A DNA stretch of 63,965 bases, the filler included, from Collodictyon triciliatum (lineage: Eukaryota): the NCBI GenBank assembly GCA_043381765.1. It is 5 parts of 5 records of this genome, joined end to end, with 100 filler letters (N's around TTAATTAATTAA, not from the genome) between each part and the next. Parts side by side here need not be neighbours in the genome. Positions count along the whole stretch, not along the records: positions 40,992 to 57,086 come from JBHJMP010000066.1; 4 more parts are not named here. The stretch is one strand, 5' to 3'. Below, piece after piece: positions 31,700-52,837 of this stretch. The first letter of the stretch is position 1. Every line of letters begins with the position of its first letter. Under the pieces are notes generated by a model. That model did not search any database. It was not told the DNA's origin and worked only from the letters and a program-made list of their open reading frames with translations. The translations under genes and the position numbers were made by a program.

Positions 31700-32365
31700 A
31701 ATGGCTTATGGTGAAAATAACTTGAATTGTAATAGCAATAAATGAGTTGAACGAGAAGAGAGAGATACCACGACATGAAATGAGGTATTTTAAGATTTGA
31801 GCATTCCAAGGTGTGAAGTCCGCCTAGTCTTGGTTTTGACTGCAAGCATCCCAAAAGCCCCATAATCATCGTTCAAAATAGTTGTGATTGCCTTTAAAAT
31901 ACGTTTTTATTTAGCTAAAATATATCATATGGTAAATAATAGTAATGGTAATAGTCAAGTTCACACAACCTCTAAAGTTGAAAAAAAATAGACGCAAAAA
32001 TAAAAGAAAATAGTATTTACGTTGAAAAACTGAGCATCGTGCGTATTTGTTGTGTCGTTCCAGGTGTTTTGCGATGACAGACCAGTACTTTTTGACTGAT
32101 TTGGTGGTGCGGTGGAACGAAGAAGAAGGATTTGAGGAGGGGGTCTCATCTTCATTATAGGTGTTGGTGGGCACTGGAACTGAGTCGTTGGTGAATCCTC
32201 TGTATAATCGTTTTGATTTGCTGTCATTGGCGCAGTGCCTCTGGAGGTGCTGACTGGTGGGCATTGACCGGAGAGTATTCGTGATTCCGCTCCATAGAAT
32301 GAAGTGATGGCTTGCATGTGAGATGTAGAGGTCGAGGTTGTTTGCTGGGCAGGTTTTCGGCTCAT
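31700..32365 (-). mobile_element. Possible degenerate BED-finger DNA transposase N-terminus (frameshifted)
   Basis: Two overlapping frames give a Ser/Thr/Pro-rich N-terminus, then SVKKYWSV...YARCSVF (TTT is one substitution from TGT, giving CxxC) and a downstream RTSHL. No terminal inverted repeats found. Confidence 0.3.
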
Positions 32366-34089
32366 AATATATAGTGGCTTTGGGCTATATTGATTTTTCT
32401 TTCCTTGTCTTTTTCTCTACCTTTGGGTTGGTGGATTATATTCCTACAAGAATTGAACGAGTGCTTAGCAGTTGGGATGGGATTATGGAACCCATGATTC
32501 ATGACGAGCGAGTTTTGCACGATTTCAATATCAAGTTAATGAGTGAATAAGGCATTTTTTTTCAAGCATTTAATTGAGGTTTTATGAGATAATGAGGGTG
32601 CCATAATCAACAAATAGTGACTATCCGCCAGTCAATAAAAAAAAAAAATCAATCTTATAGTGAGTCGGACGGGATTCGACTAGAACTATTTCAAGGTGTA
32701 TCGACAGAAGCTGATTGGCTGCTTCTTTTTCTTCTTCAACTCGAGAACTGAGCTGGTGCCTTAACATCCTAACGCTGTCTCTTTCTCTGTATGACTTTGC
32801 GCCCTGTGTCTTCCATGATTCTGCTTTTCCAAGTGATTTTTAAGCACATCCCCCACGAAAAGACTTCTATTCGCGGATTGAAGCAACGCCACAAAGCGTC
32901 ACATTTTCCGCCTGTTTTCAAGAAATCAAGTAACGAAGGCATTTGCATATATGGATTTATCACCCAAAAGCATCTCGTAGCGCCTTTCTTGGAACCGAAA
33001 GAACTGGCAATCAACCAAAAACGGCTACACCATCACTTCCGACCACAGTATTCCTGCCGGACTAGTCTTCTGTTTAAGTACTCCACTGGCTACGAAACCT
33101 TCCAGACAGCCACCAATACCCTTTCGCTCATCCAAACTCATCCGGCGCTGTTCATTTGAGTTTCCATTTCTGCGCTTAAGCCACCCGGGAGACTGCGTCA
33201 TGCCGACGCAAAACACCATCACACCATCACACCATCACACTCCGTCCTGCGCCAGGGACAGGCCGTGCTATTCTCTGGGAATTCTGGTGGAAGGGCTTTG
33301 GTTCTGTCTTCCTTTTTTTTTTTTTTTCTTTTTTGCCTCCTTCTTTTTCCCTGCTTAGATGATGGGGCTATACCAGGCGCAAACAGCTTTCCTTGGTGCC
33401 GGCAAACACCTGCGCGGAATAGAGGAGAGTGGTGTTCTGCCTGCGTGACCATGTCGAGAGTGGTCGGACGGGTTGGCAACTACGCGGGCAAAGAGGCTGG
33501 GCGGGCAGACCTTGGATGCGACAAAGTCTCCGCTCCTGCCCAGCGGTCAAGTCGGACTCGATTCTGTGCGTGTTCTACAGCGGTTTATCTTTATTTCCAT
33601 CCTGATGATGGACTTTGCGCCCAGCTGGAATGGGAGGCGGACGGTGATATGCCTTTGCGGCGGCTGTGAGGGTGAGTGGGAGTTTGGATAGGAACGGGAA
33701 AGGTAGAGTCTTGCGAGAAAGGTAGAATGAAGCCCCAGAGAATAGAGTGATCAGAAGAGGAAGCACCACATGAGATACGAGATAAATGAATGCAGAAGGA
33801 GAACAACCAATGTATGAGTGGGTGTGTATGTGTACGCATATGAGTGACTTGGCAAGTAGACAGCGGGTCGAGTTGAGAGGCTCCGAGCTCAGGCCGTCCG
33901 CTCTAAATATCGGAGTCTCGTCGGACGGCCCATATTCCTCTCAGGGTCGGGGATGGTAACTGGGTTGAAAGGGGGATTGATTAGAAAAATCCTGGTTCTC
34001 CGGTACCATTCTATAAGGCGGGCTGTGCACCAACAAACAGGATGGACGGGTCAATACCTATGACTCCGCACGACCCAGGAGCGTGGCAG

Positions 34090-35706
34090 TTAGTAGTGGG
34101 GCGCAGCGGCTCTGGCAAAGGACTCGTATGTGTTCTGCAGCAGCATGGCCACGGTCATGGGGCCGACTCCGCCCGGGACTGGCGTGATGGCCGAGGCCAC
34201 CTCCTTGACGTTCTCAAAGTCGACATCACCCACAATGCGGTGCCCAGTGGGAGACGTAGAGTCCGGGATGGCGTTGATCCCCACGTCGATGATGACGGCG
34301 CCCGGCTTCACCCAGTGCCTCTTGACAAACTCGGGCTGTCCGACAGCCGCAACCACAATATCTGCTCGGGAGACTTCTTGGTCGATGTTTCTCGTGGCTG
34401 GGTGGCATATGGTGACCTGGTCGAAACGGGTGCTGAGTGTGAATATCTTTGCTCTATGTGCAATATGCTGCCTGCTATGTGCGAAGGTGGCGAGGAGAGA
34501 GGGATTACAGTTGCGTCAGCCTTCATCAAGAGGAGTGAAGCAGGCAGTCCGACGATGTTGCTGCGGCCGAGCACCACCGCTTTCTTCCCAACAACGTCAA
34601 TCCCTGAGCGCTTCAACAGCTCCATGCAGCCCTTGGGTGTGCAGGGCGTGAAGAGCGGCGTTCGTCTGTGGATGCGTTTAGGAATGGCTATTTTTAGTGA
34701 GCAGGTGTCCAACTCAATCTTGCTGACGTATAGCGGGCAGATAAACAGGTGGTGATATTGTCTTGATGGGCGTTGGCAGAGTGAGGTTATGCGCGTTGTG
34801 CGAGATTGCAGGAGGTGAGGAGTGTATACTTGTTCATTCCCGTGCGGCCGATGTTGTCTGGGTGGAAGCCATCCACATCCTTCTGCAAACTAATCCTGTT
34901 CAGAACCGCCTCGTCGTTGAAGTGTGGCGGGAGTGGCAGCTGCACGATGATGCCGTGGACGCTGCTATCCTGATTCATGTTCTCCACCTGAACGTCAAAC
35001 AAAGGTGTCTTTGGTCAGCGACTATAGATGGATGTCATATGAGGGACATGACAACACAGGCAGGGATACTGGAGCCGAGTTGCTTCCAGGTCAACAGGAT
35101 TTTCGTTAGTCTGTGAGTGGGGTAGGCATATTCCTGGTGCGTAACCCGGGATGGGCTTTGTATGGTACCTCTTGCTCCAGCTCGGCCTGTGTGATGGTCG
35201 CTGGGAAGCGCCTTTCGACAAAGCGGATGCCGCACTTCTCGGCAGCTCTTTTCTTCATGCGGACGTAGGCCTGCGAGTCTTTGCGGTCACCAACGAGGAC
35301 AACTCCTAGGCCGGGGCGAACTTCTGGAGGGTAAGTCTGCGATAACACCATTAAGGATATTAAGTTGCGCATGATTGGGTATTCCTCAAGCTTCTTGTGT
35401 TTGTGTTTTGTTTTGTTTTGTTTGTGTTTCATGTGACCCTGAAGTTTAAGGGGCAAAGGGCAATCAAATATAAGGCATGCTTTTGGGTCTTTGGCCACGG
35501 TCGCTTTTTAGTCGACTCTAGTTGACGAGGAGGGTTGGCCGAAACTCGAGAAGTGCTGAGTCATGATATACCTTAAGTTTGTCGGAGATTTCCGTGAGGA
35601 CTTGTTCGGATATTTCACGGCCGTCGATTAGTCTCGCGGTGTGGAGGGAGGCGACTAGTCCTCCAAAGCTCTTGCGGAGGGTGGCTGGGACGATGTGGCG
35701 GAGCAT
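34090..35706 (-). CDS. folD: Bifunctional methylenetetrahydrofolate dehydrogenase/cyclohydrolase with putative mitochondrial presequence (5 exons)
   Basis: [96 protein letters not shown]. The N-terminal leader is Arg/Ser/Leu-rich with no acidic residues. Confidence 0.97.
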
Positions 35707-37508
35707 TGGGCGTGTCGGGAAGGTGGGGATCTGGTGGGGAGAAACGTTGTTCAGACCGAGATGGTCGGGCGTGTTTGGTCTGTCCTACTGTCGCTCTGGG
35801 CTGTTCTTGTTGTTGCTCACATTTGCTTGGACGCGCGTTTGTTTGGATACTTCTTGTTCGCTTGAGTGACGAATTCTGTCCCAACGGATGCAGATGCAGC
35901 TCCGAAGAACATTTGTCATGAAGTTGCTTTTAAATAAGATTGGTGTATATATAAGTTGGTTGTTTAGCTCGCGCGTGTGGGTTTGCGCACGCGCAGTTTG
36001 AGTGTTTGCACGCGCCCAACGACAAGAGTGCGCTCGTGCCTACTTGGCGGTTTCCGGTATGGCGCGTGTGGTAAATTCATTGCACGAGCGTCATCCGCAT
36101 TTTTTTGGTTGATTTTTGTTGTTTTGTTCTTGTGTTCTTTCAGTTTTTGTTTTCCATTAAATTATATATTTGATTTCTTGTTTGTTTGTTTGTTTGTTTG
36201 TTTGTTTGTTTGTTGTTGTTGTTTGTTGTTGTTTTTTTCATGCTTTTTCGTATGGCTGGTTAAGTACTATTTTTTTTAAAAAAAAATAAAAATATGAATT
36301 GGGAATGAATCTTTCTTTTGGCAAAGTGGATTAGAGGGTTGCTTGCACTATTTGATTTCATCGTCCATCTTAATATGGATATGGACATATATGGTTATGT
36401 TTGGCTGCAGAATGGAGTGCCGCATATGGAGAAGGGACAAATTCTCGCCCCAGTAAAGAGTGGTCATTCGGCTCTCTACGGATATAGAAATTATGATTGC
36501 AAAGTCCTATTCTACGAATTAGTGAAAGTTATCATACTGACAAATGTGGAAAATTGATTGGCCTCAGGCTGGATGGCCACAACTCTAACATATATTTCCG
36601 TCTGACCGATGTTCTAAGATGACTGAGAAATATAGCTCATTCCTCATTCACCGCCATTCTCGTTGCTTCAAAGCTGCATCACCCACACAGTCTTCTTTCT
36701 TGGACGCGATAGCACGCCAGGTGGGAGAATCGTGCAAAGTATGATATTAGCGTGCGAGGAATAGGACGGCAGGCACAATTTCTCGCATTCGAGTTTTATT
36801 GTCTTCGTGACAAACAGGATTCACAGAACTTAAATACGGTCAGCGGGCTGGGTGGAGGTAGTTATGTACAGTTTGTTTGTTTGTTTGGGTGTCGAAAAGA
36901 AGATGAGTGAGCGAGACTGCCCGGGGAGAGATGCGAATGGAAATATGAGGGTGGGCATACAAAGATAAACTTGGAAGCAAGCGAATGTCCTTTTCTTTTC
37001 TTTTTTTTTCTTTTTCTTTTTTTTTAACTCACTCGCATAGATAAACTACACCGAGGTGCGTGTCATGAGGACGAAAGGGAGAGCAAAAAGGAATGGGTAT
37101 AATCCGTTCCAGATGCATCAATCTGTCATCAAGGCGCATGGAAAGTTGGTCTGGTCTCTCGCTCTTTTGGTTTTGCGGGCTATTTGCGAATATATAAGGT
37201 AAGGGTTGAAAGAATGCTAGGGATGCCTCGGCACCTTGCCGTCAGTCCTTGTTTCTGTGTTCTTGGACTTTGTGCTTCAAGGGGCTTTCATCATATCTAA
37301 CTATTGAGGCTAGGGATATAGCTATTGATTAGCAAAAATAAAACATTTGGTGCATTTTTTTCTATCATCGCAATTAATATTAATTCCCAGTAAAGCAGGC
37401 TCTCTGATACATATTAGGGGTAATACGCGCACATACGACAAGAAATACATATTTAATATGGAATACTCACAAAACCTCGGCCGCAGCGCCCATACGAACT
37501 TGACCAGC

Positions 37509-39272
37509 TTAGGGAGACGGCGGGTCCTTGACTTGGCTTAGGATATAGAGAAAGATACTAGCTTTCCACGAATCGAGTCCGGTTTCGGGTGAGTATCGCT
37601 CCACTGCTTGTGTAGCACCGACATAGTCGTGTCTCATATAAGCTGCGATGAAGTCCTATCGCAAATGCCAGAGTTGAAGATATTAGTCATCTGGAGTCTC
37701 GCAAATGAAAGCTAAATCTCCATATATATGAAGACTATGCAATTCACTAAAATAATATATGACAGAATAACATACGCGGAGAAATGCGAACTCTGCTGTC
37801 TTTGTAAAAGCCCTGTCAATCGATTTATATGTTGATAGGGCTCTGTGGGCCGCTTTCATATCCTGTTTACCCCAAGGGGGTTCGCAGAGAAAATCGTTAG
37901 ATAGTATAGGCGAACAAGACGAACAAATCATGCGTTTATCATACAGCCATCTATTGCGATAACAGAAGTAGCAAGATAAAAACTACTATGACCGAAACCA
38001 ATAGGACATATTACATTCTAACGAGGAAAAAATTTTAATGAAAAGAGATACTTCTTTGAATCGAATAAAGGAAAAAATGAAAAGAGATACTTCTGTAAAT
38101 CACCTTGGAACATAGGAGCATCAAACCAGCACGAAACAAGTATTCTTTCACTTTCCAACGCAGTACTTGGTTGGTTTTTGCGTCTCGGGCAACTTTCTGG
38201 TATATCATGGAAGCACGCTCGAACTCATCTAGCTGGCCGCTGAGCTCTGCCACCTTTAAATAGCATCCAATAGAAAACCTATATGTGTCACATTGGTTAG
38301 TAAAAGTGCTGGGATATTTAGGTTGGTGTCATGAAGTAAAACAAATATATGCAAGTGATAGTTCTCCGGAAGGGAATCAATACAATGAAAAGTAAAGGGA
38401 TACCCTTTGCATTGAAGAACATCGAATGTGTAGGCTGCGTGCTCATAACAAAGTAGTGCCTCTTCAAACTCTAAAAACTTTTCGTGGACCTCTCCAGCTT
38501 CTTTAAGGAGCTTAGCAGACGTTCCCATTTGCTTCAATTCAGAATAAATCCCAGCAGCAACCCGGAGGTATGTGGCTGCATCTGATGGAAATAGATATGG
38601 TTAGGATGATTGACAGGTTTTCGGGATTTTATCATGGATAGAGTGAGTTGAACCAATCCGGCATTTATCATAACTGGTTCAAAGGTAAGGGTATTTTTAA
38701 CAGTTTGATTGCCTCATATTGTGAATAGCGTTGCTATTTATCGGAAAGAAAAGTATGATCTACGCTTGCGCTGTTTTTTATTTTTTTTAAAAAAAAAAAA
38801 AGTTCAAACATTCCGAAACTGAATATAAGTATAGACAATGAGCGAAAAATGGAAAAGAATGATTGCCTGGGTGATCGCACTTTCTTAGACAAGTCGCAGC
38901 AGAGACATACGAAGCTGCTGCTTGTTCGGGATCTTTGAGCTTTTCAAAGCATTCTGCACATCGCACATGTGCCTCTGCAGCTTTTAGCCCTATGTAAATA
39001 TGTTGCCGAGTTATAGATTAAGAGATGCGCCTTTTGGGGGAGTGGCAAAAGAATGACACATATTTCACTAGAAAGAAAAAGGAAACAAATAACAAAATAA
39101 AGGAAAGGAAAGAAGGATCGGTCTTACAGTCTGAGCCAAGGCGGAAGAAGTTTGACGCAGTGGTAAACATCTCTGCTGCTGAGGTCCACTTTGTTGTCTG
39201 GAACAGAAGGATTCGCTTTGTCATGCGATCTGCTTCGGCAAATGCAACTTCTCCATGGGCAGTGGTTGACAT
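37509..39272 (-). CDS. Soluble NSF attachment protein (alpha-SNAP/Sec17 family), divergent (6 exons)
   Basis: KWTSAAEMFTTASNFFRL, AAEAHVRCAECFEKL, YEHAAYTF, CYLKVAEL, LRWKVKEYLFRAGLMLLC, IDRAFTKTAE, LDSWKASIFLYI. Confidence 0.88.
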
Positions 39273-40580
39273 TTTCTACTTCTTTTTGTAAGACCCTTGC
39301 GCTTAGAAAAAAACAGCCCTCTTCCTTGACTGCTCCTTCGAAACAAAGACCTCTCTAGTTTGTTTTCCTTTGGAACCTCTCCTAAGGTGTGGAACTACAG
39401 GGAATAGACCTATTGAGCAAACGACCTGGCTTACTCGAGAGAATACCAGTTCCGTTCCTTTCGTTTAAGTTTTTCTACGAGGCAGGTCACCGGTTTGTTT
39501 TCTGACTTAAAAAATATCTGGGGCTTGATTCAGTCAGATTTATTGGTTGACTAAAAGGAAAAGGGAAAAAAGGGAAAGAAGCAGAATGATCCGCCATTGT
39601 CCGTTCTGTTGCTTCGTCAGGTTGGCTCGCATCACTATCTCTTCACAAGGCTCTTTTGCAACTGATGTTTTTGTCTCTGCTCGGCATTCTCAGGCATCGA
39701 CCTGTCGATTCCGTCCATCGCTTCCAAACACGCTTTGATTCATCTCTGGGCAATAATCGAGTGAAAGAAAATGATCGGGTAATGGGAAACTTGGTTGAGA
39801 TATTTATCTATTTATGGAATTATCATTTGTCTGTTCATTGGAACAGTCTTGATTTTATAAAATTCACAGAATAATCTCTTTTGTTAAACTTGCATTCATA
39901 AGACCGGATTTTTTTCAAATGTTTAAATAGGGCGCTGGCGAACGATTAAATAATCGAATGGATGTATTCTTGTCCGTTGTGTTGCCAGGATTCATAGAAA
40001 TGTTCCTAATATTCATTTTTCTTTGGAAAAGGTCGATCTATTATCCATATTAAGTATTTAGATGATCATGATATCGTAATTATGTTCGTAACCAAGTGCG
40101 TTTCCAAAACTTTTACGGAATTTGTGGCACATGAATTAAATTCGCTTGATTCCCATACTTGTACCTGAAGCGAAAATTATGTCCACAACCCAAACTAGTA
40201 AGCCACTTTCTTATTTCCACAAATAAAACCTTGTTGAATGGCATATCTCATAGTGGAAATTATTTCATTAATAATTTTAAACCTATACACATTTTTACAC
40301 GGTTCTAGCAGTATGATTATTCAGATTATGTAACATAGTTAATTACAGTTTGCACAATAGACTGAGGTGGCTATCAGAGCTATTGGAACATCTTTAGTTA
40401 TGGGCCGCATTGTCCTCATCGGGAATCGCGGTAGTAAACTTTGGCCTCTTTTGGAAAATAAGAAAAACAGTTCTTTTGGGGTCGAAGGTGGGAATTGGGT
40501 TTATGTGTGTCTGCGAAAGGAACACGGAGTCGGTGGGTGGTTTTCTTGGCTGCAGGGCAGGATCTTCTGTGTTGAGGAAA

Positions 40581-40891
40581 AGACGAGAAAAGACAAGAAA
40601 AGACAAGAAAAGACAAGAAAAGACAAGAAAAGACAAGAAAAGACAAGAAAAGACAAGAAAAGACAAGAAAAGACAAGAAAAGACAATAAAAGACAATAAA
40701 AGACAATAAAAGACAATAAAAGACAATAAAAGACAATAAAAGACAATAAAAGACAATAAAAGACAATAAAAGACAATAAAAAACAAAAAAAGAAAATAAA
40801 AGACAAAAAAAGACAATAAAAGACAATAAAAGACAATAAAAGACAATAAAAGACAATAAAAGACAATAAAAGACAATAAAAGACAATAAAA
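40581..40891. repeat. Compound 10-mer repeat (AGACAAGAAA)n then (AGACAATAAA)n at a contig end
   Basis: Two blocks differing by one base, ending at the linker. Confidence 0.95.
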
Positions 40892-40991
40892 NNNNNNNNN
40901 NNNNNNNNNNNNNNNNNNNNNNNNNNNNNNNNNNNTTAATTAATTAANNNNNNNNNNNNNNNNNNNNNNNNNNNNNNNNNNNNNNNNNNNN
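40892..40991. other. Artificial assembly linker
   Basis: TTAATTAATTAA at 40936-40947 flanked by 44 N on each side. Confidence 0.95.
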
Positions 40992-41277
40992 CTCTTATTT
41001 TTACCATATTTTCTACTCGCCTTATTTATAGATAAATTATCGTGAATTTTATATAGTTTTATTCTTATATTCGTATGCTGCGTGATATTGCTCTTTTTGT
41101 TTTTTTGTTTGTTTGTTTGTTTGTTTGTTTGTTTGTTTGTTTGTTTGTTTGTTTGTTTGTTTGTTTGTTTGTTTGTTTGTTTGTTTGTTTGTTTGTTTGT
41201 TTTAATAGTGGCCATATGCATAGAATATAGTATTTCTTATGTCATGGAAAAAGTATACACCTTTCTCGTCACATTAG

Positions 41278-43675
41278 ATGCAAGAAGCAAATCACAAGCA
41301 CCAATTTTTTTCAAGATAAAGGGTTTCCCGTCTGCTTAGAGTGCCGACCGGCTCCTCTATGCCCAAAATGCCAGGTGATTGTTGTCTGATAATATTTTAA
41401 CTCTCAAGTTATGGCGGTGATAATAAACAAACACCCGTTTTAAACAGAATTGTTCATTTACCCATTTACATATTGGCCTTATGCTTTGTAGATATGATTA
41501 TCAGGACATTATCTATTTGCTTTACCTTTATGGCTAGTTATTTTTTGATAGCGTGTGAATTCCTTTTATAGATTTCACTTTTTCTTTTTCTTTTTTCTTT
41601 TTCTTTTTTCTTTTTCTTTTTTCTTTTTCTTTTTTCTTTTTTCTTTTTCTTTTTTCTTTTTTCTTTTTTCTTTTTTCTTTTTCTTTTTTCTTTTTTCTTT
41701 TTCTTTATCTTTTTCTTTTACCTGACTCATTCACATGCTTGTCAAAGAAACCCGTCTATCTCAAAGGAGTCAAGGCCATGGATGGAATGTGGCATTTGGA
41801 GTGCTTCACATGTTCACGATGCAACACGCAGATCCGATCAAGAAATTTCGTAATCGACCGTAACATGCCTGTGTGTTGTGAATGCAGAGAAAAGGTATCC
41901 AAAAGAACTCCCCTATATATATTTGTCCATTTCGATTGCATCATCACTTGTTTTATTCGATAATGAACACATTCTGTCATTCTTTTAAACTCACAGTCTG
42001 TAAATAACTTCCTGCTCACGCATTACAATTTCCACTTTGCTGCATTTTTCTATATAAAAAAATAACAAATTATTTGAAATCATTCATACAGATCAAGGAG
42101 AGGCAATCCGAAGATCGCCGTTCAGCATATCTTCGCAAGTCTCTCATGCGGAAAACTGCCGACGGACTCCTTTCGCCCGAAGAACTTCTCAAGACACAGG
42201 CCGAAATCGAAGCCAACTATCGGTCCAATACCCGTCGAATCCAATCTATGGCCTTACCAGACACGAAAAGCCATTCTGCATCTCCAGCCGAAACAAGTGA
42301 AACAACTTCAAGTGAGGCTGTTGTGCTTGCAGATTCCGGTAATCGCCTCAGCGTGCCAGTGTCGCGCCCAATCGATATTCGTGCGCCGAACAGAGGATTA
42401 ACTTCCATCCAGGAGACCCAAACAGCTGACCGTCTGACAACTCAAATGCACTCGCAATCCGTTGGTTCCATGAGCCCCCGTATAGCTACAATACATGGGC
42501 ATCAGAGTGCTTCTAAATCGCTTCAAATATCCACGAAAAGGGACACTATGAGTCAAGGTTCTGCGCAGGAGTACGCTTCATCCCCAAAGTCCCCCGAACT
42601 TGCAGGCTCCATGCTTCCTCCATCTCCTACGGGGCCTTCTATCATGGCTGACTCGGCATACCAGTTGAGTGGCACACAGATTTCAGACTGGTGCGCTGCG
42701 TGTGGTATTCCGGTGAATCCAGCCAGTGCTTTGAAGTTTTCCGAGCGGCTGTGGCATTTGGATTGCTTTGAATGTATGAACTGTAGAGAGCCGATGAGAG
42801 ATGCAGTGCAGAATGCAGTCCTAAGGGAAGAGAAACTGTATTGTCAGAAATGCAATCTATTGCCTGAGCTGGATTTTCAATCCGCCGGTACTTTTAAAAA
42901 AAAAATTATGACATTCATTTCGAAATTTTTGCACTTTTAATTAAATTTTTGTAAAATAAAATGAATTAATATACTAACTTTTGAATTATAAAATATATCT
43001 ATGTGAACCCAGAAAAGCTTCCTCCTGGTCCTTTGTTGCTACCACAGGTTTGAAAGTAGTGAAAATATGCATACGTCAATATTCCTTGTATAAATGCACC
43101 CTGGAACGTTTGTAGGGTTATCGAATCCGCACCACAATCTGTTTTCCGAGCGGTCAGGTTGTCTCTTTTGAGTTCAACCAATCAGATATTGTGTGTGCTA
43201 TTAAAGAACAAGCCTGGAAACAAATGGTTGAATTGGAGTAATTTTTATCTGATTTTCTTACATATATCCCGCTTAATAATTTTCATATTACATTAGTCAT
43301 TTATTGATAAAAATTCATGTATGTAAACCATAATCTTTGCACGACACTCCAAATTCTTTGTTAACCTGATTTCTCTCCTGATTTCTGATTTCTTCCAGGA
43401 GTGTTCCAGCCCGAAAAACGGTCGATGATTTCATCCTTCGAGCTGCAGATGCAGAAGAATATTTCGAAGATGACAGCTTACCTTTGTGAATTTAATTATT
43501 TAATTAATCTAACATTCATGATGACGAAAGTTTTTTTCATCGAATATGTGGTGTGGTTATACTGCTGGTAAGAGAAAAAATGATGGGATGGGATTTATAT
43601 ATCCGTTGATTCCAAAGTCTAGGAATCAATTGTAGATGCAACAGAAGAAAGTAGTTCAATTACTTATCTCTTTTT

Positions 43676-43707
<32 letters not shown>

Positions 43708-43725
43708 CTTTTTTTTTTTTGTTTT

Positions 43726-43778
<53 letters not shown>

Positions 43779-44618
43779 GCCAATTCTAATGCAGATCAAA
43801 AGTGCCTTACTTTCTTTTGTGCTTCAAGTACCAAACATCACCAGCCTTGTCGCTCGTAGATTTGAATCAGGTAGTAAATCATCCATGTTATTTTTTGGGC
43901 CTCTAATATTTATATTGCCAGACCTCAGAATTTTGTATGCGTCCGTTCAATTTGTGCAAAAGTTGACATATATTCGACATGAACTAAGAAAAAGCTAAAG
44001 TTTCATTTCTTCTTGAACCTACAAACTTACTCTAGCACAAGATATTCATCAAAGAAATTGGTGCCGTCTTGGGTCGACCCCTTCGCTGGGCAACACGGGT
44101 CAATTTAGATTCCATTCGTTTCATTATTTATCAAAGTCACACTGTCAACTATCTAAAGTAACCAACACTCTATATGACCTGCTCATGCTCCAGGAGGGAG
44201 AGACCGCATATTTTAGATTAAAGACTTCATCGTAATTTTTTGTTTTTGTTTTTGTTTTATTGTTTTTGTTTTATTGTTTTTGTTTTATTGTTTTTGTTTT
44301 ATTGTTTTTGTTTTATTGTTTTTGTTTTATTGTTTTTGTTTTATTGTTTTTGTTTTNNNNNNNNNNNNNNNNNNNNNNNNNNNNNNNNNNNNNNNNNNNN
44401 NNNNNNNNNNNNNNNNNNNNNNNNNNNNNNNNNNNNNNNNNNNNNNNNNNNNNNNNTATTGTTTTTTTATTGTTTTTTTTATTGTTTTTTTATTGTTGTT
44501 TTTTTATTGTTTTTTATTGTTGTTTTTTTATTGTTTTTTTATTGTTTTTTTATTGTTTTTTTATTGTTTTTTTATTGTTTTTTTATTGTTTTTTTATTGT
44601 TTTTTTTTGTTTTTTATT

Positions 44619-44663
<45 letters not shown>

Positions 44664-47600
44664 TGTTTTTTTTTTATTGTTGTTTTTTTATTGTTGTTTT
44701 TTTATTGTTGTTTTTTTATTGTTGTTTTTTTATTGTTGTTTTTTCTATTGTTGTTTTTTCTATTGTTTTTTCTATTGTTGTTTTTTCAAAATAACAATAG
44801 CATGTTTGAATACCTCTACTTAAACAAACTCCTTTCCTCTTTTCATAAATCAATACAGCATAATCAGTGAGAGTAGATGGTTGGTAAGATTTGAATAATG
44901 TTTTTAGATATTGAGATACTGATGTCATTATATCTCATATATTTAGTCGTTTATCGTACAATGAAATCCGTTTTTCATTAATATTTTACTTTTAGAGAAT
45001 GTTTCGAAAGCCTCGCAACCAAAAATGTCCTTTCTACATGAACAAGGAGTTTAGAATACGTGTCCATATCAATGAAGGAGAAATCAAGCGCACCATTCTC
45101 TGCAAAGGTACGGCATTCATATAAATAGATTCACGATCAGAATCGCAACCAAAAAAAAAAGCACCTTTTCAATCATAAATAAATGGGGGAAAGCATAATC
45201 AATTTCGATTTGTATTGAGTTTGATTTTTGAGTTCATTAGATACATAAATAAGAGCCTCTCTAAAAAAAAAAAAATATTACATTTTCTAAACTAAAGAGA
45301 ACTCATATCATAAATACCATATTATATTAAGCAAATATGACTGCTGGGGAAGCCATCTCGCAAATATACAGTAGACACAACCCAGCTTTCGTGGACACTA
45401 GCTCTCCAACAGACTACTATTTCAAGGCAATCCTTTCAATCACTTTGATTATGAGCTATCACCGAGTGCTGATATGTGCATAAATATTGAAATGAATTTT
45501 CATACAATGCATTTAATTTTTGAGAATTCCACATTAATTACACCAGGTCATTGGTTCGCATGAGTATGCTGGTGGTGAAGACTTGGTGGCTTCGTTAAAA
45601 TCTGTGCAGAAAGCTGTGCGCATGAATAATGAAGTCGAACTTAGTCTAGTCCACAAAACGGCCATACCACGTACGGGTCGATTTGTTTGATTTATTGCAT
45701 AATTTCCTCATATTTTATTTCTTTGAGTTATGGGTGGGGTAAGAAACTTAATCTTTTTTTTAAAAAATTGAAATCATCCCAGCCATTTTCTACGATGATG
45801 TGGTTCCTCCATCGGTATTATACAAAACACGATTAGTCATATTTATTAGCCCATAAATCATGAAAGTGTGCGAGTTTCTCTCTTAAAAAAGAAATCTTTA
45901 AAATTCATTGAATCTGTCATTAGGAGAGACCCATTCTTCGCCCGCTTGCCGAAGTGGACGATGTTACACATAAATACTACACATGTGACCATTCTGATTG
46001 TGTCCCTGCAAATCAGGTCAGATATTTTCAGTTGAGCACCCAAAAAAACCCATCATATACAATTTGCTCAATAATGATAAAACTTTCATATTCCCCTCTC
46101 TGCTGGTTTTCATAATCGTGGGTAACTCTTTATATGTATAGATTAAACCGCACTTTAGAATTATGATTCGCTCTCTTCGCAGAATTACCACCAAATTCAA
46201 AACTATAAATTCGATCCTGTGAGCTCGATTGAATATGAAAGCAATATGAGATTGGAAATAAATCATGTCTAAAATTTATTGGCGAACGATGCTTTGTTTT
46301 GACTTTTTCTATGTAACGCCTGCAGGGACCAGAAGTCATCTACACCTCCATTAATCAACGTGACTGTGCAACTGTAAAACTCCAATCGATTGCTATATTG
46401 TTTAATACCACGGCGCCTTTTTCAAACTTGTGAATTAAAAAAATTTTCCCTTTATTTCTTCTTTTTTTTAAAAAAAAAAAAGGTATAATGGAGATGAAGA
46501 CATTTGTGCCCCTATTCAAACAACCCCTGCGCCTTTTTCAGAGGATATTGAAATCAACTTTATGGCAGATACACACCTCGTTATCGCAGACATCCCACCA
46601 GTAAGAAAAAAATTTTATTACATTCATATTTTATGTGCTACTCAACCAAGGCTATGATTCTAATTTTGACAACTCCACTCCTCTGATTATACATATAATT
46701 TTGTTTACGAAATCGAAACTTAGAGTGCCAGAATGTGCTTTACTATGAAGGCCATAATCAAAGACCAAGAAATACCCATTGGATGGGTGAACTGCTTGGT
46801 ATAATATCATAAAATTATAGCTTTCTTGTTATTTTTTGTTGGTTTTGATTTGTTGGTTTTGATTCGTTGGTTTTGATTTGTAACATGGCTCCGTAATGTT
46901 ATTTTTTCTTTTAGGCATACGATTATCAGGGGCATCTTCGCTCCGGTGAAGTGTGTCTTTCAATGTGGGATGATGACCGAGCCGTCCATGTTTCTAGTGG
47001 GTTTGGTAATCAAATCACCTAGATGCAGCAGCACTCTAAATGCATCTTTATTTATGTGTCCAGGTACTGCATCCGAGAACTTTGATAGTAGCGCGGCAGC
47101 AATACTGTGCTTGAATTTCAGCGTCAACGAAAAGAAAATATTTTATCAACCTGAATCTCAACGTGTTTTCTCAAGTAACTATACGTTTTCATTATCAAAC
47201 AACTTTGTGAGTCAAATGGTTATAGTTATTTGCCTCTTCTTTTTTCTTTTTCTTTTTCTTTTTCTTTTTCTTTTTCTTTTTCTTTTTCTTTTTCTTTTTC
47301 TTTTTCTTTTTCTTTTTCTTTTTCTTTTTCTTTTTTATGATTCCTTTGCCTTTTTTAAATTCTATTCTGTCGAATGAATTAAACCACTATAGTTCCTACG
47401 AGTATCCCTAAACCAAATAGTGCAGAGGAGATAATATTAAAGCGAATCACCCATACAGGTCTTGTATTGAATGTCAATTATTTTCCTATATTTGTGGTCC
47501 GTGAAAACCAATACTAGGGTTCGCATAGCACTTTTTAAAAATAATTGATAATATGCAACTGTTTAACAATTGGACGGTTAGACCCGCTGCATGTAATGGA

Positions 47601-50600
47601 AGGAAACGACTTTCTCGTACTTTTGAAGTACCGTTATTACTTGATGGACAACCCTCACGCACTACCGAAGTATTTGATGTCTGGTAATAACACTTAACTT
47701 GACTATCTGAATTTGATTGACGCATAAGACTGCCTTTCATATATATATATATATATATTAAAAAAATATATATTGATGCAACCAAAGTTCCCTGGCATGA
47801 ATCTGGTCCAGCTGAAGAGGCTTGCTTGTATGTAAACTTAAAACATGCAAAGTCGAAAGTATTTGTTGAGCATGCTCTTTTTCGTCATAAAGCAAATGTT
47901 ACATGATACCTTTAAAAAAAAACTTATCCGAGCGGCTGCATATCCCTAGTTTGCTTGAAAAATGGAGGAAACCATCACCAACAGATGCTCTGGAGGTTTT
48001 TCCTGATATTTTCTTTTTAATTTTAAAAAATTGTACATCATTTTTATTAAATGAATAAATAAATAAATAAATAAATAAATATATAAATAATCACGATAGT
48101 AAGGATTTAAATTTTATGTAGCTTTTAAACCCAAAGTTTGGTGACATAAGAATCAAGGCTTATGCAACAAAGTGTCTGGAATTTATGTCCGATGACGAGT
48201 TGGAGCTTTATCTGCTTCAATTAGTACAGGTATTATCATTTGTCTTTATTCGCTGCAAGCCTAGTCGTAGAAAAAAAATTAACACAAAGGTAAGCTGCCC
48301 ATTTGTTTGAAATTTTAATGATAATTATGAAACAAGGTTTTGAAGTCAGAGCCATACCACTTTTCCCCTCTGGCACAGTTCCTTTTGAGGAGAGCCCTTC
48401 GCAATCGTATACAGATAGGACTTAAGCTCTTTTGGATGTTAAAGGTCTCTGTCATTTTTACAAATATCTATGATTTGTAAGTATCCAAATTGAATCAGGA
48501 ATCCAACATAGTCCGAGATGCACATGCCAGAGCTATGGGAACGATTTGATTTGATGATTGAAGCATACTTGAGAGGGTAAACCAATGAATGAGTCCGACC
48601 TTTTCTTAAAAAAAAAAAAAAGTCAAGTTCCATTTTCTTTCATCTTTCTTTTAATTCATTTGGTGTTTTAGTGACAATATGCTATTTAACTCATTTGTCT
48701 GATTTTCAGATGCGGACCTCATCACCGAGAGGCAATCTTGAAGCAGAGTGAATTTGTCGACAATTTGAAGGAGATAGCCTTTTCGGTTAGAACAGCGTCT
48801 GGAACTGAGGAAAGGTGGTTTTTATCTCAATCACCCATAATATTTTTCTAGTGTCTTGCAACACACAAGTTGTTTGTTTGTTTGTTTGTTTGTTTGTTTG
48901 TTTGTTTGTTTGTTTGTTTGTTTGTTTGTTTGTTTGTTTGATTTTTTTTTTGGCTTGTTAGTCTGTTTTTGCATGTCACTTGGATATATTTGAAGTAAAA
49001 ATTGCATACGATTGCGATCATTTTTTGTTGTTTAAAACTTCTGATTATTTTTCCGGGAAAACCTTGAATAGAAAGCGCATAATGCAAGAAACGTTGGCAA
49101 ACATGAAAATTCCTCGAAATCTTCTGCTTCCCTTAAATCCAAGGCGAGGAAATTTAAAATACAACATCGTTATAATTACTACTATAAGAAACCATTTCAG
49201 TTAATCTCTGTCGACTTAATTATTTACCTTTTCTTTTTTTTCTTTTTTCTTTTTTTTCTTTTTTTCTTTTTTTCTTTTTTTTCTTTTTTTTCTTTTTTTT
49301 CTTTTTTTCTTTTTTTCTTTTTTTCTTTTTTTCTTTTTTTCTTTTTTTTCTTTTTTTCTTTNNNNNNNNNNNNNNNNNNNNNNNNNNNNNNNNNNNNNNN
49401 NNNNNNNNNNNNNNNNNNNNNNNNNNNNNNNNNNNNNNNNNNNNNNNNNNNNNNNNNNNNNTCTTCTTTTCTCTTCTTTTCTCTTCTTTTCTCTTCTTTT
49501 CTCTTCTTTTCTCTTCTTTTCTCTTCTTTTCTCTTCTTTTCTCTTCTTTTCTCTTCTTTTCTCTTCTTTTCTCTTCTTTTCTCTTCTTATCTCTTCTTAT
49601 CTCTTCTTTTCTCTTCTTTTCTCTTCTTTTCTCTTCTTTTCTCTTCTTTTCTCTTCTTTTCTTTTCTCTTCTTTTCTCTTCTTATCTCTCCTTGTCTCTT
49701 CTTTTCTCTTCTCATTCTCATTCTCATTCTCATTCTCATTCTCATTCTCATTCTCATTCTCATTCTCATTCTCATTCTCATTCTCATTCTCATGTTTTAA
49801 AAATAAGCTTATGTTATATTTGTATTATAGAATTGCTGTTCAAGGCCTTGTTTTTCCAAAGTGCAAATTTATGGACTCGAAAACGGTATCATGAATATTG
49901 ATTGACTTTGGATGGTCAAGACATTAATATCAAGATATGCATCGTGTTATAATGATTTAATTGTTTATAATTTTATACCCATCTTTCATATAAGTTTCCT
50001 TTGTGGGTGGTTTTCAAAAATGCTGATCCGCTGGGGGACAATGTCTATGTCATTTTTAAGGTTTTTCTTTTCTCTTTTCTCTTTTCAACAAGCTCATTTT
50101 TGTTTTGGTTTTCATTCAATTACTATTCCTATATGTTTATTTTATGTTTATCTTATGTTATTTTTATGTTTATTTTATGTTTATTTTATGTTTATTTTAT
50201 GTTTATTTTATGTTTATTTTATGTTTATTTTATGTTTATTTTATGTTTATTTTATGTTTATTTTATGTTTATTTTATGTTTATTTTATGTTTATTTTATG
50301 TTTATTTTATGTTTATTTTATGTTTATTTTATGTTTANNNNNNNNNNNNNNNNNNNNNNNNNNNNNNNNNNNNNNNNNNNNNNNNNNNNNNNNNNNNNNN
50401 NNNNNNNNNNNNNNNNNNNNNNNNNNNNNNNNNNNNNTTTACTTTTATTTTTACTTTTATTTTTACTTTTATTTTTACTTTTATTTTTACTTTTATTTTT
50501 ACTTTTATTTTTACTTTTATTTTTACTTTTATTTTTACTTTTATTTTTACTTTTATTTTTACTTTTATTTTTACTTTTATTTTTACTTTTATTTTTACTT

Positions 50601-51177
50601 TTATTTTTACTTTTATTTTTCTCTCTTGAATCACATAATGTGTAGTAATTGAATTATTTTTTATGTTTTTGTTTATTTATTAATTTGTCCTCTTTTAGGA
50701 GGGCGATGACCTCCGCCAAGACCAGCTTACTCTTCAAATGCTCAACATTATTGATAACGTAATACCGAATACATCGATGTTTTTCAAGTCGGAAAAAAAT
50801 AAAAATAAAAAAATAGAAGGAAATTACTAATCTCTTAAATATCAAAGTTGTGGCTTGAGGACCATCTAGACTTGCAACTAATTACTTACGGTTGTATTTC
50901 GACTGGGAAAGATATCGGTATGATAGAAGTTGTTTTGAACGCAGAGACCACCGCAAGGATACAAAAGGTTAAACAGCACATTTACATACGAAAATTATTG
51001 AGTTGTTTATACTATTTGAGATTTTGACATCAATCCCGAAAATACTATTGACACTGGCTTTTTTTTTTAAGAATTTTTTATTTTGTAATTATTTTGCATA
51101 GAATGCTGGTGGAGCACGAGCAGCTTTTGGAGATAGAAATATCATTAATTGGCTGCAACAACAGAACACATCAGGTG

Positions 51178-51275
<98 letters not shown>

Positions 51276-52837
51276 NNNNNNNNNNNNNNNNNNNNNNNNN
51301 NNNNNNNNNNNNNNNNNNNNNNNNNNNNNNNNNNNNNNNNNNNNNNNNNNNNNNNNNNNNNNNNNNNNNNNNNNNTAATGTTAATGTTAATGTTAATGTT
51401 AATGTTAATGTTAATGTTAATGTTAATGTTAATGTTAATGTTAATGTTAATGTTAATGTTAATGTTAATGTTAATGTTAATGTTTTTCATAAGATATTAT
51501 GCTGCTGGATATCTGCTTATTCAGACATAATTTGAGAACAATACTTGACAATATTTTTGCCTATTAGAGCCTGCTTATAAACTTGCATCCGAAAACTTTC
51601 TCCTCTCTTGTGCGGCGAGGTTTGTTTGCATTTAGGAAGGAAAAAAAGGGATTTTTATTCATGTTCGAACTCTAAATGTTTTAGGAATGCTAGATATACA
51701 ACGAGGCAATCAAAACTCACAATTTATTTTGCAAACAGCTGCGTTGCAACTTTCATTCTGGGCATCGGTGATAGGCATAATGACAACATCATGCTTACAA
51801 AATCAGGCCATCTATTCCGTATCCAAACGAAAACAAACAAACAAACAAACAAACAAACAAACAAACAAACAAACAAACAAGAAAAAGAAAAAGAAAAAAA
51901 GACTCAACTCTATATAGGCTTTATTTGACTCATGTCCGTATTGTTCAAATTTGTTAATAACGTATACACAATTTTTTTCCTTATTATTTGGCGCTATATC
52001 ACCACTCTCTCCATTATTCTTTTATGTCCTTCCGTTTTCCTTAAATCTGAACATCAGACATTGACTTCGGTCACTTTCTGGGGAACTTTATGACATGGAA
52101 TGGCTTTAAGCGGGAGCGGGCTCCGTTCGTTTTGACACCAGATTTTGCGGCGGCCATGGGTGGCAAAGAAAGTCCCGGATTCCGGCGTTTTCAGGCGATA
52201 TGTTGTCGTGCCTTCATCAAACTGCGCCATCATGCATCGCTGTTTATTAATCTGTTCTCGATGGTTTGTTGTTGATTTCTTTATAATTAAAAAAAAAAGC
52301 AGTGATTCTGACATATTCTCAGAATATATTTGAACATTCACTCAAGACATTTACGATAAGAACAAAGAGCTGGATTGGTAAAGCAGCTTGTTTGCAGTAT
52401 ATCGTCATTTTGGGTGTGAACAATCCTTTACTGTAATTGTTGTGATGTTTTTGATTGTTAACACATATTTTTTATATCGCGCGCCCTAGATGGTTTCAAT
52501 TGGCATTCCCGAGCTGACTTCCCCAAATGATTTAGAGTACCTGCGACAAGCTTTTGTTCTCTCTTGTCAGTCTCTACGCGAATATTTTTTTTTCTTCTCT
52601 CTTTTTTTTCTTCTGCATTTTTTGACATTTTTCTTTTCTTCTGTTTTTATTTTTGAGAAATACCAATTCATGATTGAAAATGCGCTTCATAATCACCAAC
52701 AAACGCCTCACTCCCAACACAACGCAGACACCAACGAAGGCGCAAGCAAGCACTTTGAGAGCCTTATCCACGAGAGCCTGCGCACAAAGACAACGCAGCT
52801 GAACTTTGCCATCCACATCCTTGCGCATCCCGACTAA
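41278..52837 (+). CDS. Class I-type phosphoinositide 3-kinase catalytic subunit with N-terminal LIM domains (5' partial, about 30 exons)
   Basis: One phase-consistent exon chain: partial LIM plus two full LIMs; ABD-like (CFPSGQ...IKEQAW); RBD (DYYFKVIGSHEY); C2 ([19 protein letters not shown]); helical ([15 protein letters not shown]); kinase ([69 protein letters not shown]). Confidence 0.93.

What the first reader, a model, noticed from the sequence alone, without database searches (positions are those of the whole stretch)
41278..52837. Class I-type PI3K fused to at least three LIM domains
Seen: the exons chain in phase from a LIM C-terminal half (CKKQ...CLEC), through a full LIM (CPKC-x16[10 protein letters not shown]...CCEC), a long Ser/Pro-rich linker and a third LIM (CAAC...[10 protein letters not shown]...CQKC), into ABD-RBD-C2-helical-kinase with no stop or intergenic gap. 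Known: animal p110 subunits lack LIM domains and are localised by p85/p101 adaptors and Ras; tandem paxillin/zyxin-type LIMs bind adhesion sites and strained F-actin. Inference: this PI3K may carry its own actin- or tension-targeting module, linking cortical mechanics to phosphoinositide signalling in motility or phagocytosis. More LIMs may lie upstream of the contig edge. I do not know of a characterised example but could not search.
Basis: partly seen in the sequence, partly recalled or inferred. Interest (0 to 1): 0.78.

Follow-up and report, generated by a model that had tools for sequence, protein, structure and literature searches.

The report
LIM-domain class I PI3K fusion gene
A protist gene joins three LIM zinc-finger domains to a complete class I PI 3-kinase, and the same arrangement is transcribed in the distant relative Rigifila, so this lipid kinase seems to carry its own docking module.

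Summary
On the + strand, LIM exons (41278-42887) lie directly upstream of a complete, catalytically intact class I-type PI3K (43116-52837). My 40-exon model is open from 41278 to the TAA at 52835-52837.

One correction: the LIM3 exon cannot join the first PI3K exon directly, because that join is out of frame. An inferred 35-nt micro-exon (43013-43047) restores the frame. No RNA contig covered this junction.

The decisive support is comparative. The closest PI3K in the databases comes from Rigifila ramosa (CRuMs). One of its transcript isoforms (P0272, 1329 aa) has the same architecture: LIM1, a 5-residue spacer, LIM2, a low-complexity Ser/Pro/Ala-rich linker, LIM3, a Pro-rich piece, then the PI3K. 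It was hidden behind a LIM-less cluster representative. The window protein and P0272 are sister sequences (41% identity), and LIM2 is conserved at 49%.

A freshwater metatranscriptome contig confirms the LIM2-to-linker splice. By orthology there are exactly three LIMs, not more. A candidate start exon lies at 39586-39620, across a scaffold joint.

I found no paper describing a LIM-PI3K. I rate it a new variant of a known kind, of moderate interest.

The parts
39586..39620 (+). Candidate first coding exon (ATG, then the first CxxC of LIM1, 'CPFCC'). It leaves in phase 2 with a GT donor at 39621. It lies in the neighbouring scaffold.
   Evidence: Read from the sequence. Its exit phase (2) matches the entry phase of exon 41278. 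It resembles the Rigifila N-terminus, M-x2-CxxCC, and the spliced aligner picked it. About 22 residues from the middle of LIM1 were not found in the assembled sequence. Moderate confidence.
40892..40991 (.). Artificial scaffold joint (N44-TTAATTAATTAA-N44) that interrupts the gene's 5' part.
   Evidence: the same linker also occurs at 23063-23162, 57087-57186 and 61821-61920.
41278..41374 (+). Exon carrying the second zinc finger of LIM1, a 5-residue spacer and the first CxxC of LIM2.
   Evidence: It aligns to Rigifila P0272 residues 33-64.
41748..41894 (+). Exon carrying the rest of LIM2.
   Evidence: Pfam LIM, E 7.7e-8. The donor at 41894|41895 is confirmed by an RNA contig of run X2, which joins 41894 to 42092.
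42092..42887 (+). 796-nt exon: a charged stretch, a Ser-rich linker and LIM3 (42692-42853). GT donor at 42888. It leaves in phase 1.
   Evidence: Pfam LIM, E 7.5e-12. The acceptor is confirmed by the X2 contig, and the X1 contig covers 42377-42747.
43013..43047 (+). Inferred 35-nt micro-exon (Pro-rich, 12 codons) that restores the frame between LIM3 and the PI3K part.
   Evidence: It is the best of 6 in-frame routes. The orthologue is also Pro-rich at this position. The gene has other exons of 24-48 nt and introns of 67-68 nt. No RNA cover.
43116..44080 (+). Exons of the N-terminal ubiquitin-like (ABD-like) domain and the start of the conserved linker motif.
   Evidence: The profile match starts at model residue 355. 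The orthologue's model shows a beta-grasp-like pattern of strands and helices at pLDDT about 85-90. No in-frame ATG can serve this exon.
45020..45660 (+). Exons of the Ras-binding domain.
   Evidence: Colinear with the Pfam PI3K_rbd of P0272, residues 431-543. Only 21% identity.
46354..47068 (+). Exons of the PI3K C2 domain.
   Evidence: Colinear with PI3K_C2 of P0272. 35 of 100 residues identical.
47416..48731 (+). Exons of the helical (PIK) domain.
   Evidence: Pfam PI3Ka on exon 48122-48310, E 7.8e-12. 53% identity to P0272.
50043..52837 (+). Exons of the kinase domain, with Lys at 50058-50060, DRH at 51770-51778, DFG at 52063-52071 and the stop TAA at 52835-52837. No PX or C2 tail.
   Evidence: Pfam PI3_PI4_kinase, E 2.3e-12. 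Residues invariant across the 41 relatives are present. 72% identity to P0272.

Best explanation
The window holds one multi-exon gene: at least 40 coding exons from 41278 to 52837, probably starting at 39586 across a scaffold joint. It encodes a class I-type PI 3-kinase catalytic subunit with an N-terminal extension of three LIM domains. The order is LIM1, a 5-residue spacer, LIM2, a Ser-rich disordered linker of about 200 residues, LIM3, a short Pro-rich piece, a ubiquitin-like domain, RBD, C2, helical domain and kinase.

Shown: the LIM and PI3K parts are real and on one strand. The LIM exons are transcribed and spliced. The kinase keeps its catalytic residues. An orthologue in Rigifila ramosa is transcribed as a single ORF with the same architecture.

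Inferred: in this organism LIM3 is spliced to the PI3K part through the micro-exon 43013-43047.

Proposed mechanism (inference): the LIM module is a built-in protein-docking or adaptor module. It places or regulates the kinase at a cytoskeletal or cortical partner, while the RBD still receives Ras-type input. The long Ser-rich tether is a likely site of phospho-regulation. The module's layout does not fit the known strained-actin sensors.
For: - LIM Pfam hits on the window's ORFs.
- PI3Ka and kinase Pfam hits on single exons.
- The 40-exon chain is open, with a single terminal stop.
- The class I PI3K profile matches model residues 355-1363 in one piece.
- The frame of the first PI3K exon has a TAG immediately upstream. 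None of the 5 ATGs between 42854 and 43115 reaches it in frame, so it needs an upstream coding exon.
- An RNA contig of run X2 joins 41894 to 42092 at 100% identity.
- The Rigifila isoform P0272 carries LIM x3 (E 1.8e-28), PI3K_rbd, PI3K_C2, PI3Ka and the kinase in one 1329-aa ORF.
- The global alignment with P0272 is colinear from LIM1 to the C-terminus.
- The two are sisters with 100% SH-like support, at 41% identity.
- LIM2 is 49% identical, more than the ABD-like domain, RBD or C2 (21-35%), so the LIM module looks constrained.
- The Rigifila LIM-only isoform P0271 diverges 9 residues after the last Cys of LIM3. The window's donor lies 11 residues after it. This suggests a shared splice position.
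Against: - No RNA contig covers 42760-43640, so the LIM3-to-PI3K splice in this organism is unproven.
- In-frame joining through a micro-exon is weak evidence on its own. By my own count from the splice sites listed, 6 of roughly a dozen possible micro-exons are in frame.
- Trinity isoforms can be chimeric, and I could not inspect the Rigifila nucleotide contig or its read support.
- Rigifila also has a PI3K-only ORF (P0001) and a LIM-only ORF (P0271).
- 0 of the 120 listed PI3K relatives and 0 of 10 further clusters checked member by member carry LIM.
- The function of the LIM module is untested.
Confidence: 0.72

Rival explanations
1. There are two adjacent genes. A small LIM-only protein ends at the stop 42938-42940, by read-through of the 42888 donor. 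A separate PI3K has a true 5' exon that is unrecognised. The fused ORF in Rigifila is then a read-through or assembly chimera.
For: The LIM3 exon stays open for 17 more codons to a stop at 42938. Rigifila has separate LIM-only (P0271) and PI3K-only (P0001) ORFs. No RNA covers the junction here.
Against: Only 175 nt separate that stop from the first PI3K exon, and they hold no usable ATG. That exon has an in-frame TAG right before it, so it must be spliced to something upstream. A chimera of two genes would normally keep the upstream gene's stop, whereas P0272 is one open 1329-aa ORF. The same domain order in two species at 41% identity is hard to obtain by artefact twice.
Confidence: 0.13
2. 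One reading: the LIM module senses strained F-actin and so couples cortical tension to PIP3 synthesis.
For: LIM domains of several families bind tensed actin (abstracts and passages). Two tandem LIMs associate weakly with strain sites. LIM1 and LIM2 of both species have a Phe in the second finger; my mapping of that Phe to the published 'conserved phenylalanine' position is from recall and untested. The best PDB sequence matches to the LIMs include PINCH, paxillin and FHL.
Against: The published binders have at least 3 LIMs in tandem with 7-8-residue linkers, and tripling the linker length abolished binding. All mechanoresponders found had at least three tandem LIMs. Here the LIM1-LIM2 spacer is 5 residues, and LIM3 is about 200 residues away (83 in Rigifila). 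LIM3 lacks the Phe in both species.
Confidence: 0.12
3. The LIM module acts mainly in cis, as an inhibitory or stabilising partner of the ubiquitin-like, C2 or helical domains. This would stand in for the p85/p101-type regulatory subunit rather than serve as a localisation tag.
For: The module sits immediately N-terminal to the domain that binds regulatory subunits in animal p110 (established knowledge). LIM3 is always placed 15-40 residues before that domain in both species. No p85B domain (PF02192) is detected.
Against: No contact prediction or experiment was done. The long disordered tether argues for reach rather than a fixed intramolecular dock, at least for LIM1-2.
Confidence: 0.15

Closest known systems
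Rigifila ramosa transcript isoform TRINITY_DN425_c0_g1_i4 (EukProt EP00004; session id P0272), uncharacterised
   Same: Identical domain order: three LIMs, a 5-residue LIM1-LIM2 spacer, a low-complexity linker before LIM3, a Pro-rich piece, then the ubiquitin-like domain, RBD, C2, helical domain and kinase. It is the sister of the window protein in the tree. The kinase domain is 72% identical and LIM2 49%.
   Different: Overall identity is 41%. The LIM2-LIM3 linker is 83 residues, against about 200 here. Rigifila has a Met right at the start of the PI3K part, so a LIM-less product is possible there. The window has none.
Animal class I PI3K catalytic subunits (p110 gamma, beta, delta, alpha)
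   Same: Same core. The PDB sequence E-value for the orthologue is about 1e-153. The orthologue's model aligns to p110 gamma at Z 38.9, rmsd 2.8 A, over 836 residues. The catalytic Lys, DRH and DFG are present. The protein ends after the kinase domain, with no PX/C2 tail.
   Different: Animal p110s have no LIM domains and rely on p85 or p101/p84 subunits. No p85-binding domain family (PF02192) is detected here.
Other protist class I-type PI3Ks with extra N-terminal modules (seen among the hits)
   Same: The same theme of a targeting or regulatory domain fused in front of the PI3K core: PH (P0022, P0027, P0043, P0090), SH3+C1 (Cavostelium, P0045), DEP (P0066), and GAF plus a cyclic-nucleotide-binding domain (P0076).
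   Different: None of the 120 listed carries LIM (precomputed Pfam).
Strain-sensing LIM proteins (zyxin, paxillin/Hic-5, FHL)
   Same: LIM domains of the common type. PINCH, paxillin and FHL are the best PDB sequence matches, at E 6e-12 to 1e-8.
   Different: The layout rule (at least 3 tandem LIMs, 7-8-residue linkers) is not met.
PTEN-like phosphatase + PTEN_C2 + 5 LIM + FYVE protein (P0208, a EukProt transcriptome)
   Same: Another phosphoinositide enzyme fused to LIM domains in a protist.
   Different: It is a phosphatase, not a kinase. Its LIMs are C-terminal to the catalytic part and in tandem. It is unrelated in sequence outside the LIMs.

Membership tests
Class I PI3K catalytic subunit (p110 type) | PI3/PI4-kinase catalytic domain with the ATP-binding Lys, the DRH catalytic loop and DFG | tested here: met
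   Pfam PF00454 on exon 52051-52275, E 2.3e-12. Lys at 50058-60, DRH at 51770-78, DFG at 52063-71 in the model. These columns are invariant in the 41 relatives.
Class I PI3K catalytic subunit (p110 type) | Helical PIK domain | tested here: met
   PF00613 on exon 48122-48310, E 7.8e-12. 94 of 176 residues identical to the orthologue's Pfam-defined domain.
Class I PI3K catalytic subunit (p110 type) | PI3K-type C2 domain and Ras-binding domain upstream of the helical domain | tested here: met
   Single exons are too short for Pfam. They are colinear with PF00792 and PF00794 of P0272, and the 41-sequence profile runs through both regions without a break. This evidence is indirect, and RBD identity is only 21%.
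Class I PI3K catalytic subunit (p110 type) | N-terminal adaptor-binding (ubiquitin-like) domain | tested here: inconclusive
   PF02192 is not detected, and there is no PDB sequence match. The AlphaFold model of the orthologue P0001 shows a strand/helix pattern like a ubiquitin fold in residues 1-106, at pLDDT about 70-90. Only one p110 gamma entry aligns from model residue 27, and most align from about residue 92.
Class I PI3K catalytic subunit (p110 type) | No C-terminal PX/C2 extension (which would distinguish class II) | tested here: met
   The stop TAA at 52835-37 comes directly after the last kinase helix. The best PDB matches are class I (1e-153), ahead of class II C2-alpha (1e-141).
Class I PI3K catalytic subunit (p110 type) | Obligate partner subunit (p85 or p101/p84) | not testable with these tools
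   No whole genome is held for this window.
LIM domain (PF00412) | Two zinc fingers: CxxC-x16-23-HxxC, then CxxC-x16-21-CxxC/H/D | tested here: met
   LIM2 and LIM3 pass the Pfam cut-off (32.9 and 45.8 bits, against 22.9). LIM3 matches the full regex. Only the second finger of LIM1 is present in this scaffold.
Strained-actin-binding LIM proteins (zyxin/paxillin/FHL type) | [quoted passage not shown] | tested here: not met
   The spacers are 5 residues (LIM1-LIM2) and about 200 residues (LIM2-LIM3). The rule was read in passages of 10.1101/2020.03.06.980649 and 10.1101/2020.03.06.979245.
Strained-actin-binding LIM proteins (zyxin/paxillin/FHL type) | [quoted passage not shown] | tested here: inconclusive
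   The paper's alignment figure is not held, and my placing of the position is recalled. A Phe is present in the second finger of LIM1 and LIM2 and absent in LIM3, in both species.

The most novel reading that the evidence does not exclude
A lineage near the base of Amorphea (Rigifila and the window's organism, whose sequences are as far apart as 41% identity) has kept a class I PI3K whose regulatory or targeting subunit is replaced by a covalently attached three-LIM module. PIP3 production would then be wired directly to a cytoskeletal or adhesion partner without p85/p101-type adaptors. This would be a distinct, conserved way of controlling class I PI3K.
Probability: 0.25. Interest if true: 0.7.

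Novelty: new variant of a known kind. Interest (0 to 1): 0.5.

Why it matters
Class I PI3Ks are usually explained through their adaptor subunits and Ras. A natural enzyme with a built-in, conserved LIM module offers a simple system for asking what localisation or regulation a class I PI3K needs when no p85/p101-type partner is involved. It also shows which partners LIM domains had before animals. In addition, it shows that domain-architecture surveys based on cluster representatives can miss fusions: the Rigifila fusion was hidden behind a LIM-less isoform. The finding is not revolutionary, because protist PI3Ks carry many other N-terminal modules.

Tried and rejected
- Protein word-index searches with the LIM3 exon, 'longer', and with its last 110 residues, 'near': no hits. 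This is now explained for Rigifila, where the representative lacks LIM.
- Exhaustive phmmer with the LIM3 exon: 293 hits at E up to 0.001. The best stretch of every one of the 150 listed lies within query residues 21-261, nearly all over LIM3 (about 195-258). I scanned only the 19 of these 150 that are 700 aa or longer. 0 of 19 hold PI3K domains.
- Metagenome scans with the LIM3 exon and with 31 nt of the micro-exon: nothing.
- ESM Atlas with P0272: only LIM-less PI3K clusters were listed.
- RNA: runs X13 and X14 laid nothing. X1 and X2 gave one contig each. There is no cover over 42760-43640, so the key junction stays untested.
- No whole genome is held.
- A TACTAAC 39 nt before the micro-exon acceptor looked like a branch site. 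Only 1 of the 39 introns has CTAAC and 8 of 39 have CTRAY, so it is not informative.
- Ab initio codon-usage chaining alone mis-called several N-terminal exons, so I preferred homology-guided choices.
- A start codon for a stand-alone PI3K between 42854 and 43115: none usable. One route would need a 28-nt intron, against a minimum of 67 in this gene.
- Search for the missing middle of LIM1 in 39500-41300: not found.
- The IQ-TREE run did not finish, so the tree is FastTree only.
- Earlier scan notes: none for this genome. One unrelated FYVE-Vps34 note came up.
Full report
**What the window is.**
The sequence is eukaryotic, AT-rich (GC about 0.23-0.40 around the gene) and full of microsatellites. 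It is assembled from several scaffolds glued together by an artificial N44-TTAATTAATTAA-N44 linker at 23063, 40892, 57087 and 61821. The finding lies in the scaffold 40992-57086. Four introns of the gene also contain 100-N gaps inside repeats. No whole genome is held for this window.

**The LIM exons.**
- Pfam finds LIM in the ORFs 41559-41963 (E 7.7e-8) and 42008-42940 (E 7.5e-12). Regex scans of all six frames find LIM spacing nowhere else in the window.
- Reading the DNA gives three exons. Exon 41278-41374 carries the second finger of LIM1, five residues, and the first CxxC of LIM2, and leaves in phase 0. Exon 41748-41894 carries the rest of LIM2, phase 0 to 0. Exon 42092-42887 carries a charged stretch, a Ser-rich linker and LIM3 at 42692-42853.
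- The linker has 35 Ser, 17 Thr and 13 Pro in 201 residues.
- A 221-nt contig of a freshwater metatranscriptome (run X2) matches 41765-41892 and 42090-42182 without a mismatch. It skips a 197-nt GT..AG intron. Placing the cut at the GT..AG gives the borders 41894|42092, so this splice is shown by RNA.
- A second run (X1) has a 371-nt contig on 42377-42747 with 3 differences.

**The PI3K part.**
- A kinase exon found 165 relatives at E up to 1e-10. The best, at 74% identity, was a 1043-aa EukProt transcript protein, P0001.
- I wrote a protein-to-genome spliced aligner and ran 8 full-length relatives against 43100-53000. Exon borders from 47582 to 52565 were the same in most or all of the 8.
- The poorly conserved N-terminal third was resolved in two ways: I enumerated GT..AG chains scored by codon usage, and I chose those that reproduce conserved motifs of the relatives.
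- The final 40-exon chain, 41278-52837, is open with one stop, TAA at 52835-52837.
- A profile of 41 class I-type relatives matches model residues 355-1363 in a single stretch of 1051 bits. PI3K homology therefore begins exactly at exon 43116.
- Pfam on single exons confirms PI3Ka and PI3_PI4_kinase. The catalytic Lys, DRH and DFG are present. There is no PX/C2 tail.

**The junction.**
- The LIM3 exon ends at 42887 in phase 1, and the only GT after the last Cys of LIM3 is at 42888. Exon 43116 needs phase 0 and has a TAG immediately upstream in its own frame. A direct join runs into a stop.
- Six in-frame routes exist, all through a micro-exon within 43013-43058. The best scoring is 43013-43047 (35 nt), which encodes a Pro-rich dodecapeptide. 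Its flanking introns are 125 and 68 nt.
- This gene has other exons of 24-48 nt and introns of 67-68 nt.
- By my own count from the splice sites listed, about half of the possible micro-exons keep the frame. Being in frame is therefore weak evidence on its own.
- More telling is that none of the five ATGs between 42854 and 43115 can start the PI3K frame. The first PI3K exon must be spliced to upstream coding sequence.
- No RNA contig covers 42760-43640. Two metagenome scans and a protein search for fragments found nothing. This step therefore remains inferred.

**The orthologue.**
- Looking inside the 90%-identity cluster of P0001 showed that it is Rigifila ramosa (EukProt EP00004). The same Trinity gene has a 1329-aa isoform, P0272, and a 320-aa isoform, P0271.
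- P0272 carries three LIM domains (PF00412, E 1.8e-28, 3 stretches) followed by PI3K_rbd, PI3K_C2, PI3Ka and PI3_PI4_kinase in one ORF.
- The global alignment of my model with P0272 is colinear throughout: second half of LIM1, five-residue spacer, LIM2, low-complexity linker, LIM3, Pro-rich piece, then the whole PI3K.
- Identities are 49% for LIM2, 31% for LIM3, 25% for the ABD-like domain, 21% for the RBD, 35% for C2, 53% for the helical domain and 72% for the kinase. Overall, 524 of 1233 aligned residues are identical.
- In a FastTree of 43 sequences the two are sisters, with SH-like support of 100. The IQ-TREE run did not finish.
- The LIM-only isoform P0271 diverges from P0272 nine residues after the last Cys of LIM3. 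The window's donor lies eleven residues after it. This suggests a shared splice site and, in Rigifila, occasional intron retention.
- The fusion was invisible to my earlier searches because the clusters are represented by the LIM-less isoform.
- Among the other PI3K relatives, 0 of 120 listed carry LIM by precomputed Pfam. 0 of 10 further clusters hide a longer isoform.

**The 5' end.**
P0272 begins three residues before LIM1, so only about 30 residues are missing here, not further LIMs. In the preceding scaffold, on the same strand, 39586-39620 reads ATG plus ten codons containing CxxCC, followed by a GT donor. It leaves in phase 2, which is exactly the phase exon 41278 needs, and Rigifila starts M-x2-CxxCC. 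About 22 residues from the middle of LIM1 are not in the assembled sequence and probably lie in the gap. A SNAP-like gene on the minus strand ends its 5' part near 39275, which would leave a 310-bp divergent promoter region.

**Class and fold.**
- The best PDB sequence matches of P0272 are p110 beta and gamma (about 1e-153), ahead of class II C2-alpha (1e-141).
- An AlphaFold model of P0001, built with a 41-sequence alignment, has mean pLDDT 83.8 and pTM 0.87.
- The model matches p110 gamma by Foldseek at E 1.5e-61. By VIA-align the match is Z 38.9, rmsd 2.8 A, over 836 residues.
- The N-terminal 100 residues are predicted as a strand/helix pattern resembling a ubiquitin fold. They are aligned to p110 gamma from residue 27 in only one entry, and are not recognised by Pfam or by PDB sequence search. 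I therefore call this domain ABD-like and leave its membership open.

**Function.**
I read passages of two 2020 preprints.
- One states that all strain-site binders have three or more tandem LIMs with 7-8-residue linkers, that two LIMs bind weakly, and that tripling the linkers abolishes binding (10.1101/2020.03.06.980649).
- The other states that all mechanoresponders had at least three tandem LIMs with a conserved Phe in each (10.1101/2020.03.06.979245).
- Here only LIM1 and LIM2 are in tandem, with a 5-residue spacer. LIM3 is about 200 residues away, or 83 in Rigifila. The defining layout is not met.
- I therefore favour a general docking or regulatory role for the LIM module, with the Ser-rich tether as a probable phospho-regulated spacer. 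This is inference.
- The conservation of LIM2 above that of the RBD and C2 argues that the module is functional.
- The theme is not isolated. Other protist class I-type PI3Ks among the hits carry PH, SH3+C1, DEP or GAF plus cyclic-nucleotide-binding modules. One protist transcript also joins a PTEN-like phosphatase to five LIMs and a FYVE finger.

**Novelty.**
Four full-text searches listed no paper on a LIM-bearing PI3K. I saw only listings and abstract starts for those. The PI3K evolution paper PMC4617754 contains the word LIM 0 times (term search and passages). Supplementary files were not consulted. The architecture exists in a public transcriptome but appears undescribed. I rate it a new variant of a known kind, and its interest as moderate.

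Noticed in passing
23063-23162, 40892-40991, 57087-57186, 61821-61920: The window is a concatenation of scaffolds joined by an artificial N44-TTAATTAATTAA-N44 linker (stops in all frames). Adjacency across these joints is not guaranteed, though the candidate first exon at 39586 suggests that the 40892 joint is in true order.
   Followed up: partly
32000-36000 (genes at 34090-34515 and 35106-35507, minus strand): A GC-rich island (0.47-0.53, against about 0.33 elsewhere) holds a methylenetetrahydrofolate dehydrogenase/cyclohydrolase gene (PF02882 E 2.5e-43, PF00763 E 3.2e-15). The cause of the composition jump is unexplained.
   Followed up: partly
38035-39275, minus strand: A SNAP (soluble NSF attachment protein)-like gene (PF14938, E 1.8e-5 on one exon). 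Its start lies about 310 bp from the candidate first exon of the LIM-PI3K gene, so the two may share a divergent promoter.
   Followed up: partly
44357-44456, 49362-49461, 50338-50437, 51276-51375: Four introns of the PI3K gene contain 100-N gaps inside microsatellites. The model is colinear with the relatives across them, so no exon seems to be lost.
   Followed up: partly
protein P0208 (EukProt transcript): A PTEN-like phosphatase + PTEN_C2 + five LIM + FYVE protein. This is another phosphoinositide enzyme fused to LIM domains in a protist.
   Followed up: no
proteins P0045, P0022, P0027, P0043, P0066, P0076, P0064: Class I-type PI3K relatives carrying other N-terminal modules: SH3+C1 (Cavostelium), PH, DEP, GAF plus a cyclic-nucleotide-binding domain, and a ubiquitin-conjugating-enzyme domain.
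   Followed up: no
proteins P0001, P0271, P0272 (Rigifila ramosa): One Trinity gene gives a fused ORF (1329 aa), a PI3K-only ORF starting at a Met right at the PI3K part (1043 aa), and a LIM-only ORF that diverges 9 residues after LIM3 (320 aa). This may reflect alternative splicing or intron retention.
   Followed up: partly
15446-15946 (+), 1666-2064 (+), 8074-14472 (-): A mitochondrial ATP synthase subunit d-like exon (PF05873, E 6.6e-7), a tyrosine-kinase-like protein kinase fragment (PF07714, E 4.8e-7), and ORFs that look like an ABC transporter by eye (not tested).
   Followed up: partly
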